A stretch of DNA of 63,450 bases, filler included. It is 13 parts of 13 records of this genome, joined end to end, with 100 filler letters (N's around TTAATTAATTAA, not from the genome) between each part and the next. Parts side by side here need not be neighbours in the genome. Positions count along the whole stretch, not along the records: positions 8,006 to 15,348 come from SRR7504441_56359; 12 more parts are not named here. One strand, given 5' to 3'. Positions 7,906 to 11,318 of this stretch are shown piece after piece (positions within the stretch are counted from its first letter, which is position 1; every line of letters begins with the position of its first letter). The position numbers were made by a program, and so were the translations under genes. The notes beneath the pieces were generated by a model. It had not been told where the DNA came from and ran no database searches. It saw only the letters and a program-made list of their open reading frames with translations.

Positions 7906-8005
7906 NNNNNNNNNNNNNNNNNNNNNNNNNNNNNNNNNNNNNNNNNNNNTTAATTAATTAANNNNNNNNNNNNNNNNNNNNNNNNNNNNNNNNNNNNNNN
8001 NNNNN
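7906..8005. other. Artificial contig spacer (44 N + TTAATTAATTAA + 44 N); same spacer at 15349-15448, 20771-20870, 25514-25613, 29796-29895, 35274-35373, 39529-39628, 44326-44425, 47725-47824, 51157-51256, 54916-55015, 59912-60011
   Basis: Twelve identical 100-nt blocks; the core gives stops in all six frames; genes are cut at their edges. Confidence 0.99.
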
Positions 8006-8006
8006 A

Positions 8007-8411
8007 GTGGTCCAGATCCACACCGCCAGCCCGACTGAGGCTTACACGGCAATTCAAGCGCTGAGCACCACCTCAAGCAGCACTCTCACCCAGATGCTGG
8101 TCCAGCAGCTCCAGGCGACCAACCATGCTGGACCGATGCCCACCATGGTCACCATCGTGATCCAACAAGTCTCAGATGCAGGTGACGGCGGCAGCGGCAG
8201 TGAGAGCGAGAGCATTACACTCTTGATTGCGGTGTCGGTTGCGGTGTCGTTGCTCCTTGTCGCTGCGCTGGTTGTTGGGGCTCTGGCGTACCTGTGGAAG
8301 ACCAGCAAGAAGATGCCTGGCGCCGCGAATCAAGATGCGGCCCAGCCTGAGAGCCCGGACGTTGTTTCCGGAGTCGAGATCAATTGCAATCCGATGCATA
8401 CAAAGGAGTGA
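8007..8411 (+). CDS. C-terminal fragment of a single-pass membrane protein
   Basis: Hydrophobic LLIAVSVAVSLLLVAALVVGALAYLW followed by basic KTSKK; cut by spacer at 5' end. Confidence 0.65.
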   Translation: MVQIHTASPTEAYTAIQALSTTSSSTLTQMLVQQLQATNHAGPMPTMVTIVIQQVSDAGDGGSGSESESITLLIAVSVAVSLLLVAALVVGALAYLWKTSKKMPGAANQDAAQPESPDVVSGVEINCNPMHTKE

Positions 8412-8671: not shown

Positions 8672-11215
8672 CTACGACAACCACGAGGGCACGTTAGCCC
8701 GCACCGGCGATGCCATGAACTCCTCTTGGTTGATGATCTCCGGGGCGACTTGCCCGGAGCTAATCTCAGCGATCTTGTCTGTTGCATCATCAATCTCCTC
8801 TAGTGCACTGCCAAGCTCGGAATTGGCTTTGACCAAATCGACCCGCAGCGTCTCTTTCTCAAATTCAGCTTCGCGGGCCCGCCTGGCCTCCTTCTCCGAC
8901 AGTATCTCTAGCTGCTTAACTTGGGTCACAGACTTGGCTAGGTTATCCTTGGCGCTCATGGTCTGCTCGAGCATTGAGCCACGAACCTTCTCCAGCCGCA
9001 TCTTCCACAGGATCTCCACCTCATCGCACCGCTTCTCGCACGCAATGCACTGCTGCTTCTGGATCTCAATCTCCTTGAGTGCGCTCAGCAGCTCGCGCTG
9101 CGCCTTGCTGGTCTGCTGCTGCTGGACCTTGACTTTGTGCTGCTCAGTCACCAGCTCGGTGTGGTATTTGGTGCTCGCCTCACGCGCCGCCTGCAGGTCC
9201 CGCCGCAGCCGCAGCTCTACCTGGTCCTTCTCGTTCTGAGTCAGCTCTAGGCTCTGAGACAGAGCCTCGAGCTCAGCCGTGAATTGCTTGACTCTTGTCT
9301 CCTTCTCGTAGTTGGCGTTGTCAGTCATCAGCTGGCCCTCGTGCGCCGCCGAGCGGAGGTCGGCGATCTGCTTGAGATGGTGCTCCTTCTCGGTCTGGCT
9401 GTTCCGGCGGAGCATAACAAGGTCGTTGTTCAACTCGTCTTTTTGCTGCTCGGCCTGTGCCAAAACTTGCTCCATCTCGGAGAGCGTGCTGGTCGAGTCC
9501 TCGCGCAGCTTATCCAGCTGGCGGGTGAGCGCGTCGTTCTCCACCTCCAGCCGCTTGTTGGCCTGGAGCGCACCCTCGAGTTCGCCACGAAGCACAAGTT
9601 TCTCCATCTCGACTTCGTGAACAGACTTTTCGGCGTCTTGCTTAGTCTCAAACAGCTCATCCTGCACCAACCAGTCAGTATGTGAAAGGACTAGCAGCCT
9701 GGCAGCGACGGGGACACTGCGTAGGAGAATAAGCCCCAGACATTACTCTTGCAAGGAAAAAAATTGATCCCAGCCATGGCTACCCTCCTGATTCCAGAGA
9801 GGGGGGCTGGTAACAGAGTGTGTCTTGCAGCACAGACCCGCACGACTCCAAGCAGCGCACCTCTAGCTGGCCCTTGTGCTTGCGCAGCTCGCTGATGGTG
9901 CCCTCCAGCGACGCCACTTTCTCTGCATGCTCGTCAGCTGCAATCCTGTCCAGAGCCATCAGAAACCCAATCGAGGTCAACGCGCACTTGGCTTCGCCTC
10001 GCAGCTGGCTGGTCAGATTGTCCATCTCTAGCTCGTGAGCTCCACGCATCGCTGCGAGCTCAGCTTGCTTGAGCTCTTCTGCTGAGTCCACGTCCGCTGC
10101 ATGCGCTTCTTGAAGCAGAGCCTTGTCCTTCTTGGCATCGGCCTGCTCAGTCTCGCGAGCCGCCTCCGAGCTGCTCAGGTCATCCTCGAGCGCCTTAATC
10201 CGGAGCTGCGCGCTGCCCCCGCCTGTCAGCTGGCTGGCTGGCCTGGGAGCCACTTGAGGGTCTCCTCGTTCGTGTACTCCATGTGGGTGACCATCTGGCG
10301 GTTGTGTCGAATCACTTCGTCCAGCCTGCTCTGGAGCTCCTCGTTTGAAGTCATCACTCGATCCGTGTGCTCGTGAGCCAACTACCCGGCCCGATCGCCC
10401 GGCCTGATTGCACGGTGCGCACCTCGAGTCGGACGCCGAGGATTCCCTTCTCGCGATGGGCTGTCTTTACGACCTCATCGATCTTCTGAGTGGCCACCGC
10501 CAGCTTCTCGTCCTGCACTCGCCGCATGTGGTTGGCCCCGTCGACCGCCGACTTGAGAAGCTGTTTCTCTGCACTGGCGCAGTCCTCTGTCTGCTTCAGC
10601 TTGCGCTGCAGGGCCTCAGCCCGCTGCCTGCCGGCATCGTCTAGATCCTGCAGGTTTCGGCTGTACTCGTCTGCCCCCACGTTCGCCCCCGCCCGGCCCA
10701 GGGGGCGCACCCTGGGTCAGCTTAAGCCGCTGCTCGCTCGAGACCGACAGTTGCTCCAGATTGGACTCCAGCCGGTTGCGCTCGGCAACAAGCGCGTACG
10801 TGCTCGCCTTGTTGATCGCGTTCTCTCGGAGCATGCTGTCCTCCCGCTTGCGCGTGGCGGCCAGCTCTCCGGTCAGGTACTCGCAGCTGTTCTGGACCCC
10901 GGAGAGCTGATCCTGGACCTTGGACAGCTCGAACCGGGCCACGTTGGTGCCCTGGATGTCGCTATGCAGCGTCCGGAGCTGGTCCAGCGCCGCGTCCCGC
11001 TGGACGGTGGCCCGGGCCTCGGCGGCCATGTGGACCAGGCTCTGCTGCTCCACCTTGCTCCGCTCCATTTCCAGGTCGCGCGACTGAGTCTCGAGCTTGC
11101 TCCGCATCACCCGCAGCTCCTGCACCGCCTGCGGCGACGCCTCGCTCCCGGATGGCTCGCCAGCCGGGGCTCGGCGCTCCCGGCGCCGGTCCCGGAGCTC
11201 AGCGAGGAAGCTCAT
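8672..11215 (-). CDS. Long coiled-coil protein, multi-exon; snoRNA host gene
   Basis: E/K/Q/L heptad-rich ORFs joined by GT-AG introns, including 9662-9860. Confidence 0.75.
9678..9830 (-). ncRNA. Intronic box H/ACA snoRNA, putative 18S rRNA pseudouridylation guide
   Basis: Hairpin - H box AGAGUA (9744-9749) - hairpin - ACA (9681-9683) + 3 nt, inside a 199-nt intron; pocket 1 ACACUCU/UUUUUUC matches the 18S consensus GAAAAAA-UU-AGAGUGU. Confidence 0.75.
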
Positions 11216-11318
11216 CTTCGCAGGCCTGCGGTGGGTCCCGGCTGCAACGGCGTTCTCAAGTCTCAGCTGCGATTTTTATTATATTTTATAACGGCCCCGC
11301 CGGCTGGCTCTCATCAGT

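What the first reader, a model, noticed from the sequence alone, without database searches (positions are those of the whole stretch)
9678..9830. Box H/ACA snoRNA filling the longest intron found, with both pockets matching conserved 18S rRNA sites
Seen: most introns here are about 30-45 nt, but intron 9662-9860 (minus) is 199 nt. It folds as hairpin 1 (lower stem UGCAAG/CUUGCA, upper stem CCAGCC/GGCUGG), H box AGAGUA, hairpin 2 (GGGGCU/AGUCCU, GCAGUG/CGCUGC), then ACA + 3 nt, followed by the branch motif CUGAC and the 3' splice site. Pocket 1 (ACACUCU ... UUUUUUC) pairs perfectly with the eukaryotic 18S consensus GAAAAAA-UU-AGAGUGU. Pocket 2 (CUGC starting 14 nt before ACA; GCUUAUU on the 5' side) resembles GCAG-UU-AAAAAGC, with a mismatch and partial overlap of the lower stem, so it is weaker. 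From memory, these are yeast 18S Psi766 and Psi632 (snR161) and human Psi822 and Psi686 (SNORA44). Inference: a likely functional counterpart of that dual guide, hosted in a coiled-coil gene. Intron length could be used to screen this genome for ncRNAs.
Basis: partly seen in the sequence, partly recalled or inferred. Interest (0 to 1): 0.75.

Follow-up and report, generated by a model that had tools for sequence, protein, structure and literature searches.

The report
Intron-hosted H/ACA snoRNA, target reassigned

Summary
The sequence features are all present as described. A 199-nt GT..AG phase-0 intron (9860-9662, minus strand) contains a 153-nt hairpin / AGAGUA / hairpin / ACA+3 unit. Three neighbouring introns of the same gene are 40, 41 and 41 nt. 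A Telonema subtile transcript protein aligns ungapped across the splice junction, so the intron is real.

A structure filter found this unit as the only hit in the window. It found 12 hits in 64 shuffled windows, none with both hairpins as stable.

Pocket 1 pairs 7+7 with 18S GAAAAAA-UU-AGAGUGU. Published numbering places that UU at human Psi814/815, Arabidopsis Psi761/762 and yeast U758/Psi759 (snR80). It is not Psi822/Psi766, which lies 7 nt downstream.

That pairing also carries a mismatch in all 45 18S sequences tested. A better pocket-2 match (7+6) is AUUAGCA-UG-GAAUAA, but it is not significant.

No Rfam H/ACA family matches. I obtained no orthologous DNA and not the organism's own 18S. 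RNA contigs hold the region but do not delimit a small RNA.

Verdict: a probable new member of a known class. The SNORA44/snR161 reading is rejected.

The parts
9662..9860 (-). 199-nt spliceosomal intron, phase 0, GTGCGC...CUGAC...CAG
   Evidence: Read. Removing it together with the three small introns gives an open 760-aa frame. Telonema subtile protein P0016 and protein P0019 align ungapped across the junction at aa 431/432. It is single-copy in the window.
9678..9830 (-). Predicted 153-nt box H/ACA snoRNA. RNA position i corresponds to window position 9831-i. The mature ends are not mapped.
   Evidence: Minimum-free-energy fold. Only hit of the architecture filter in the window, against 12 hits in 64 shuffles.
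9750..9829 (-). Hairpin 1 (RNA 2-81): lower stem 2-7/76-81, pocket, upper stem 21-26/56-61 with an extension at 17/65
   Evidence: -27 kcal/mol
9815..9821 (-). Pocket 1, 5' guide ACACUCU (RNA 10-16). It pairs with 18S AGAGUGU, 3' of the UU.
9756..9764 (-). Pocket 1, 3' guide A-U7-C (RNA 67-75). UUUUUUC pairs with 18S GAAAAAA and, through G-U pairs, with GARRAAA. The target U lies 14 nt (first U) or 16 nt (second U) from the H box.
9744..9749 (-). H box AGAGUA (RNA 82-87), which fits ANANNA
   Evidence: One RNA-library contig (run X3) reads AAAGUA here (window 9748, RNA 83), which still fits ANANNA.
9687..9737 (-). Hairpin 2 (RNA 94-144): lower stem 94-99/139-144, pocket 100-105/134-138, upper stem 106-108/131-133 plus 111-116/124-129
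   Evidence: -17.7 kcal/mol for the 60-nt segment that holds it; -17.2 for the hairpin alone
9727..9732 (-). Pocket 2, 5' strand UUAUUC (RNA 99-104). Candidate guide for 18S GAAUAA.
9690..9697 (-). Pocket 2, 3' strand C-UGCUAGU (RNA 134-141). UGCUAGU pairs with 18S AUUAGCA.
9681..9683 (-). ACA box (RNA 148-150), 3 nt after hairpin 2. The predicted 3' end is 3 nt further on, at 9678.
9674..9678 (-). Branch-site-like CUGAC. Its A at 9675 lies 13 nt before the last intron base, the same spacing as in the 41-nt intron 10253-10213.
9861..10212 (-). Upstream exon of the coiled-coil host gene
8672..9661 (-). Last exon of the host gene (329 codons plus stop)
10671..10710 (-). 40-nt intron of the same gene, GTGCGC..CAG
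10382..10422 (-). 41-nt intron of the same gene, GTGCGC..TAG
10213..10253 (-). 41-nt intron of the same gene, GTGGCT..CTGAC..CAG

Best explanation
The 199-nt intron is a normal-sized intron of this genome (30 nt at the 5' end plus 16 nt at the 3' end, 46 nt in all) into which a 153-nt box H/ACA snoRNA is set. After splicing and debranching, exonucleases would trim the intron back to the RNA protected by the H/ACA proteins; this step is inferred from how intronic snoRNAs are made in other eukaryotes.

The 5' hairpin's pocket binds 18S rRNA at GAAAAAA-UU-AGAGUGU. It leaves the UU unpaired 14-16 nt from the H box, so the bound pseudouridine synthase converts one or both of these uridines. These are the positions known as human Psi814/815, Arabidopsis Psi761/762 and yeast Psi759.

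The 3' hairpin has a small pocket whose target is uncertain. The best candidate is the U of 18S AUUAGCA-UG-GAAUAA, about 41-42 nt downstream of the first site.

Shown here: the intron, the fold, the boxes and the complementarity to 18S sequences of other eukaryotes. Inferred: accumulation of the RNA, the mature ends, and the modification itself.
For: (1) The intron is real. Three of the gene's four introns begin GTGCGC, this one among them (the fourth begins GTGGCT), and the CUGAC-to-3' end spacing equals that of a neighbouring intron. The spliced frame is open for 760 aa. A Telonema subtile transcript protein gives one alignment of 45% identity (E = 8e-125) that runs ungapped over the junction, and P0019 does the same.

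(2) The intron is about five times longer than the other three introns of the gene (40, 41, 41 nt). Its excess length equals the folded unit.

(3) The unconstrained fold gives two hairpins, an unpaired AGAGUA hinge, and ACA 3 nt after hairpin 2.

(4) The architecture filter gave 1 hit in 63,450 bases on both strands, at exactly this place and on the sense strand of the host gene. It gave 12 hits in 64 shuffles, none with both hairpins as stable.

(5) In each full-length or near-full 18S scanned, pocket 1's best small-subunit match is the same site. The scores were 13.0 in L042, 12.5 in L047, and 14 (7+7 Watson-Crick pairs) in L019 and L020. The U-run tolerates the A/G variation seen there. Of 39 18S loci, 16 pair without a mismatch, 19 have one mismatch and 4 have two or more.

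(6) That site is pseudouridylated in human, Arabidopsis and yeast.

(7) The only variant seen inside the unit falls on an N position of ANANNA.

(8) Contigs of three polyA metatranscriptome runs from three studies hold the intron sequence.
Against: - The fold is not more stable than shuffles (z = -1.29; whole intron z = -0.72).
- No Rfam H/ACA family matches, even at E <= 10.
- I could obtain no orthologous DNA, so there is no covariation test.
- Under my liberal scan, complementarity alone is weak. Shuffled pocket-1 strands reach the observed score in 44 of 300 trials (score 13.0) and in 18 of 400 (score 14). Pocket 2 is matched in 96 of 300 and 62 of 400.
- The organism's own 18S is unknown.
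- In the first-U register, three guide bases (RNA 66-68) stay unpaired between the guide helix and the upper stem.
- The better pocket-2 pairing invades the lower stem by 3 nt on the 3' side and 1 nt on the 5' side.
- The RNA-library contigs do not delimit a 153-nt RNA, two of them run unspliced over a splice site, and DNA carry-over cannot be excluded.
- The architecture filter was tuned after I had seen the candidate.
Confidence: 0.7

Rival explanations
1. The unit is a real H/ACA-type RNA, but pocket 1's match to 18S is fortuitous. It would then be an orphan, or a guide for another RNA such as an snRNA, the large-subunit rRNA, or an organism-specific site.
For: Shuffled guide strands often reach similar scores. 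Pocket 1 also gives an 8+8 match, with 7 G-U pairs, to a large-subunit site in L049. Pocket 2 has a conserved large-subunit match, CUAGUAGC-UG-GUUCC, in 3 of 3 large-subunit sequences. No snRNA sequences were available to scan.
Against: The best small-subunit hit falls on a uridine pair that is modified in three distant eukaryotes. It pairs with 14 Watson-Crick pairs at the canonical box distance. The apical loops (GAAU, UCCCCGU) lack the Cajal-body UGAG signal; that motif is recalled, not taken from a call, and the loops were read.
Confidence: 0.13
2. There is no snoRNA. The intron is merely long, and its hairpins and boxes arise by chance in G+C-rich sequence.
For: z-scores of -1.29 and -0.72. 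No Rfam hit. No conservation data. 11 of 64 shuffled windows give at least one architecture hit.
Against: Such a hit would have to fall by chance inside the only outsized intron of the gene, on the sense strand. It would also have to fill exactly the excess length, have both hairpins more stable than any of the 12 shuffle hits, and have its best 18S match on a known Psi site.
Confidence: 0.13
3. One reading: a functional counterpart of the dual guide snR161/SNORA44, modifying the equivalents of yeast Psi766 and Psi632.
For: The two snoRNAs do guide those pairs of sites. The candidate's pockets are complementary to sequences in the same two 18S regions.
Against: The uridine equivalent to Psi766/822 lies 7 nt downstream of the unpaired UU and is itself base-paired to the 5' guide. 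The pocket-2 pairing has a mismatch in 45 of 45 18S loci. Without invading the lower stem it has only 4+2 contiguous pairs (and read). There is no Rfam match to either family.
Confidence: 0.03

Closest known systems
Guides for the same 18S uridine pair: vertebrate ACA25/ACA63 (Psi814) and ACA28 (Psi815), yeast snR80 (Psi759), plant snoR91
   Same: Box H/ACA class. The same target dinucleotide is reached by bipartite pairing. In chicken the homologues use the 5' hairpin for this site and sit in introns (PMC2653536 table passage). The 7+7 or 8+6 pairing is comparable to the chicken 6+5 and 8+5.
   Different: No sequence or structure match to any Rfam family. The second pocket does not show the partner targets of those guides: 25S Psi776 for snR80, and 18S Psi866 for ACA28 and Psi801 for ACA25 (both read from the chicken table; the human numbers are recalled). 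A single U7 tract could serve either uridine.
Yeast snR161 / human SNORA44 (ACA44)
   Same: A two-pocket H/ACA guide acting on the same two regions of 18S. SNORA44 is also intronic (SNHG12).
   Different: Their sites (Psi766/Psi822 and Psi632/Psi686) are 7 nt and at least 15 nt away from the uridines presented by this RNA. A fungal survey reports the snR161 family as specific to Saccharomycotina (PMC5824354 passage). No Rfam match.
Outsized introns that host snoRNA-like RNAs in compact genomes
   Same: A single long intron among very short ones, its excess length taken up by a folded H/ACA-like RNA.
   Different: A different lineage and host gene. Those notes report conservation across relatives, which I could not test here.

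Membership tests
Box H/ACA snoRNA (class) | Hairpin-hinge-hairpin-tail secondary structure | tested here: met
   Minimum-free-energy fold of 9830-9678. Separate folds of each half. Passes the architecture filter.
Box H/ACA snoRNA (class) | H box ANANNA, single-stranded, in the hinge | tested here: met
   AGAGUA at RNA 82-87, unpaired in the fold. A natural variant, AAAGUA, keeps the motif.
Box H/ACA snoRNA (class) | ACA located 3 nt from the mature 3' end | tested here: inconclusive
   ACA lies 3 nt after hairpin 2, but the mature 3' end is not mapped. The contigs cannot show ends.
Box H/ACA snoRNA (class) | Internal-loop pocket with bipartite complementarity flanking an unpaired U-N, 14-16 nt from the H or ACA box | tested here: met
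   Pocket 1 pairs 7+7 (first U, 14 nt) or 8+6 (second U, 16 nt) with 18S sequences of other eukaryotes. The organism's own 18S was not available.
Box H/ACA snoRNA (class) | Accumulates as a stable small RNA bound by Cbf5/dyskerin, Nop10, Nhp2 and Gar1 | not testable with these tools
   Only contigs of polyA metatranscriptomes were available.
snR161 / SNORA44 | Similarity to the curated family models | tested here: not met
   cmscan against all Rfam 15 families gave no H/ACA family at the gathering score or at E <= 10.
snR161 / SNORA44 | Guides the uridine equivalent to yeast Psi766 / human Psi822 | tested here: not met
   The unpaired UU is Arabidopsis 761/762 = human 814/815. The 766/822 position is 7 nt downstream and lies inside the guide duplex.
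snR161 / SNORA44 | Guides the uridine equivalent to yeast Psi632 (human Psi686 for SNORA44) | tested here: not met
Offset 574 is the only one that fits five yeast modified positions, in 7 of the 9 loci tested (none fitted in the other two). The human 686 position was not mapped here.
snR80 / ACA28 / ACA25 / ACA63 / snoR91 (guides of the same UU) | Pocket presenting the UU of GAAAAAA-UU-AGAGUG | tested here: met
   together with the mapping
snR80 / ACA28 / ACA25 / ACA63 / snoR91 (guides of the same UU) | Sequence homology to those families | tested here: not met
   No Rfam hit. This supports a functional analogy only, not membership.
snR80 / ACA28 / ACA25 / ACA63 / snoR91 (guides of the same UU) | Second pocket directed at that family's partner site | tested here: inconclusive
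   Pocket 2's best hits lie elsewhere. The partner sites were not placed exactly on the fetched rRNAs.

The most novel reading that the evidence does not exclude
The single A-U7-C guide strand lets one pocket present either of the two adjacent uridines by a one-base slip: 7+7 pairs at 14 nt from the H box, or 8+6 pairs at 16 nt. One hairpin would then make both pseudouridines, which other eukaryotes make with separate snoRNAs.

In addition, the ACA box lies only 6 nt from the branch adenosine of a minimal intron. snoRNP assembly and branch-site recognition could therefore compete, which would fit the unspliced RNA-library contigs over both splice sites.
Probability: 0.12. Interest if true: 0.5.

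Novelty: new member of a known kind. Interest (0 to 1): 0.3.

Why it matters
If real, this is an ordinary rRNA pseudouridylation guide. It comes from an uncultured marine protist whose closest named relative in the protein collection is Telonema subtile. A full-text search for the two terms Telonema and snoRNA found no paper holding both.

In a genome with 40-nt introns, an outsized intron whose excess length equals a folded unit is a cheap flag for intron-hosted non-coding RNAs.

It also shows the risk of assigning guide targets from remembered position numbers. The complementarity was real, but the site was a different known pseudouridine pair, served in other eukaryotes by other snoRNA families.

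Tried and rejected
- Whole genome of the window: none is held, so I could not fetch the organism's own 18S.

- Orthologous loci: the search for related loci with the last exon in metagenome contigs found 227 pattern matches, but none was a relative by tblastn.

- Guide-based DNA pattern (5' guide, gap, 3' guide, 6 N, ANANNA, gap, UUAUUC) in metagenome contigs gave 20 hits. On reading them, all are unrelated, mostly A+T-rich sequence without the fold, and the organism itself is not among them.

- Viral contigs with the 18S primer: 0 hits.

- Earlier findings by place and by sequence: nothing.

- RNA evidence. Run X3's single laid contig (160 nt, 9665-9824) lies wholly inside the intron, and no X3 contig covers the flanking exons. 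Contigs cannot rank parts of a gene, and missing cover proves nothing, so I do not use this as evidence of a stable small RNA. No spliced joint was seen in any of the four runs. X4 (9735-9946) and X6 (9574-9748) cross the 5' and 3' splice sites unspliced. That could be pre-mRNA, intron retention or DNA carry-over.

- Statistical support from guide complementarity alone: rejected as insufficient.

- Anchoring yeast 759/766/796 directly on fungal-like loci failed, because the variable region differs in length (second column). I used the Arabidopsis anchors instead.

- Repeat or mobile-element origin of the long intron: no second copy in the window.

- Whether the pocket-2 candidate uridine (Arabidopsis position 803 by my offset) is a known or predicted Psi: it is not in the main text of PMC8351944. 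That paper's Supplementary Table 3 could not be opened.

- A multi-source Rfam call failed internally. I repeated it with four loci.
Full report
**What is there**

On the minus strand the host gene reads ...KHKGQLE, then GTGCGC... at 9860. The interruption ends ...CUGAC-12 nt-CAG at 9662, and the frame resumes in phase 0 with DELFETKQ.... It is 199 nt long.

Reading the same gene upstream, I found three more introns:
- 10710-10671 (40 nt, GTGCGC..CAG);
- 10422-10382 (41 nt, GTGCGC..TAG);
- 10253-10213 (41 nt, GTGGCT..CTGAC..CAG).

An earlier count gave 50 nt for the first of these. That was a ruler slip, corrected and in note 3.

Removing all four introns gives an open 760-aa frame. In both the 41-nt intron 10253-10213 and the 199-nt intron, the A of CUGAC lies 13 nt before the last intron base.

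**The intron is real**

I searched the protein collection with the last exon. It returned a 529-aa protein from the Telonema subtile transcriptome (P0016; EukProt accession) and several unnamed metagenome proteins.

P0016 aligns to the spliced model in one segment: residues 5-529 to model 220-758, 45% identity, E = 8e-125. This crosses three junctions. At the junction left by the 199-nt intron (aa 431/432) the alignment is ungapped, and P0019 behaves the same way. The 199 nt are therefore non-coding and absent from the orthologue's mRNA.

The intron sequence occurs only once in the window.

**The folded unit**

The 153 nt from 9830 to 9678 fold without constraints into:
- hairpin 1 (RNA 2-81);
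- an unpaired AGAGUA (82-87);
- hairpin 2 (94-144);
- ACA (148-150) plus 3 nt.

What remains of the intron is 30 nt on the 5' side and 16 nt on the 3' side. That is 46 nt, about the size of an ordinary intron of this gene.

Stability alone is unremarkable: z = -1.29 for the unit and -0.72 for the intron.

I wrote a filter for the full architecture. It requires ANANNA 45-80 nt before an ACA, two unbranched hairpins closing next to the boxes, and in each an internal loop of at least 4+4 nt whose 3' strand starts 13-17 nt from its box. In the real window, on both strands, it gives one hit, and that hit is this unit. In 64 block-wise dinucleotide shuffles it gives 12 hits. Eleven shuffles had at least one hit, and none of the 12 hits had both hairpins as stable as -27.0 and -17.2 kcal/mol. 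The filter's tolerances were chosen after I had seen the candidate, so this is a generous estimate.

**Known families**

Rfam 15 has no match in the window at gathering thresholds. At E <= 10 on the intron or on the unit, only four unrelated weak hits appear and none is an H/ACA family.

**Targets**

No genome is held for the window. I therefore fetched eukaryotic 18S fragments that contaminate prokaryote assemblies, using a universal 18S primer: 51 loci, of which at least 3 are chance primer hits. Rfam mapped complete small-subunit rRNAs in L047, L042 and L049, and a complete large-subunit rRNA in L049.

My bipartite scan places pocket 1's best small-subunit match at G-A-R-R-A-A-A / UU / AGAGUG(U) in L042 and L047. 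In L019 and L020 it is 7+7 Watson-Crick pairs. Across the 39 loci that carry the site, 16 pair without a mismatch, 19 have one mismatch and 4 have two or more. The U-run absorbs the A/G variation through G-U pairs. A one-base shifted register (A67 plus seven U, 8+6 pairs) presents the second U instead. The two registers place the target 14 and 16 nt from the H box.

**Which site is it?**

The literature confirms that snR161 guides Psi632 and Psi766 (PMC5699541, table passage) and that SNORA44 guides Psi686 and Psi822 (PMC13507652, Table 1 passage).

However, PMC8351944 (passage read) states that Arabidopsis Psi761/Psi762 correspond to human Psi814/Psi815, and that Am799 corresponds to yeast Am796. 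The plant-like L047 small-subunit rRNA (1808 nt) has the UU at 762/763 and an A at 800, which is one constant +1 offset. So the UU is human 814/815, and its second U is yeast 759, the snR80 site.

The chicken table (PMC2653536 passage) lists 18S-774 (ACA25/63), 18S-775 (snR80, snoR91, ACA28) and 18S-782 (snR161, ACA44). The snR161/ACA44 uridine is therefore 7 nt downstream, inside the stretch that pairs with the 5' guide.

For the second site I tested all offsets from 540 to 619 against five yeast modified positions. Only 574 fits (541A, 562G, 578U, 619A, 632U), and it does so in 7 of the 9 loci tested; the other two had no fitting offset, one of them holding only 15 nt upstream of the primer.

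The snR161/SNORA44 reading therefore fails on both sites.

**Pocket 2**

The scan's best small-subunit hit is AUUAGCA-UG-GAAUAA. UGCUAGU (RNA 135-141) and UUAUUC (99-104) pair with it, giving 7+6 pairs with one G-U, 14 nt from the ACA, and 41-42 nt downstream of site 1. It is fully paired in 27 of 37 loci. It invades the lower stem by 3 nt on the 3' side and 1 nt on the 5' side. I found no record that this uridine is modified (supplements closed).

**Controls on complementarity**

I shuffled the pocket strands and rescanned. Pocket 1's score was equalled in 44 of 300 trials (observed 13.0) and in 18 of 400 (observed 14). Pocket 2's score was equalled in 96 of 300 and 62 of 400.

Complementarity alone therefore does not prove either target. 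The weight for pocket 1 comes from its best hit landing on a uridine pair known to be modified in three distant eukaryotes. Pocket 2 remains unassigned.

**RNA and DNA in public runs**

The intron's sampled words are held by three DNA runs from two studies and by three polyA metatranscriptome runs from three studies, all marine. When laid on the window, the RNA-library contigs cover 9665-9824 (X3), 9735-9946 (X4) and 9574-9748 (X6). No spliced joint appears. These are contigs, so they show presence only. Two of them cross a splice site unspliced. X3 carries one difference, at 9748, which turns AGAGUA into AAAGUA and keeps ANANNA.

**Lineage**

A neighbouring anoctamin gene and the host gene both have their best named match in Telonema subtile, at 52% and 45-49% identity. 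This is a lead that the organism is a telonemid relative, not a proof.

**Comparative data**

Both metagenome scans failed to return orthologous DNA. No covariation test was possible.

**Verdict**

This is a probable intron-encoded box H/ACA snoRNA (about 0.8 for the class). I put about 0.7 on the full statement that its 5' pocket guides pseudouridylation of the 18S UU known as human 814/815.

It is a new member of a known kind. It is a functional analogue of ACA25/63, ACA28, snR80 and snoR91, but not a demonstrable member of any of those families, and it is not a counterpart of snR161/SNORA44.

Noticed in passing
window 8672-11275, minus strand: The host gene can be modelled as five exons giving a 760-aa coiled-coil protein with no Pfam family for its last exon. 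It has a clear orthologue in the Telonema subtile transcriptome. The first exon's true start was not determined.
   Followed up: partly
window, whole: GTGCGC, which is the 5' splice-site hexamer of three of the four introns read, occurs 35 times on the plus strand and 25 times on the minus strand. It could seed an intron survey of this genome.
   Followed up: no
window 9748: An RNA-library contig of run X3 differs from the window at one base inside the unit. The change is G to A at the second position of the H box, which keeps ANANNA.
   Followed up: partly
window about 7962-8010: A run of N (translated as X in several frames) marks an assembly gap just downstream of the host gene.
   Followed up: no
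window 17552-61902: Neighbouring long ORFs carry SulP/STAS, anoctamin, GH31, GH32 C-terminal, GH5 cellulase, carboxylesterase, LMF1 and LCAT-like domains. This gene set fits a heterotrophic protist.
   Followed up: no
L001-L051 (genome contigs): A universal eukaryotic 18S primer hits at least 51 contigs filed under bacterial or archaeal genome records. Most are eukaryotic rDNA fragments, i.e. contamination. L049 and L039 carry group I introns in the 18S.
   Followed up: partly
proteins P0015, P0020, P0021 against the spliced model: Three gene calls from related metagenome contigs begin at model residues 430-434, at or within 3 residues of the junction left by the 199-nt intron (aa 431/432). 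This suggests that those relatives also have an intron there. Their DNA could not be fetched.
   Followed up: no
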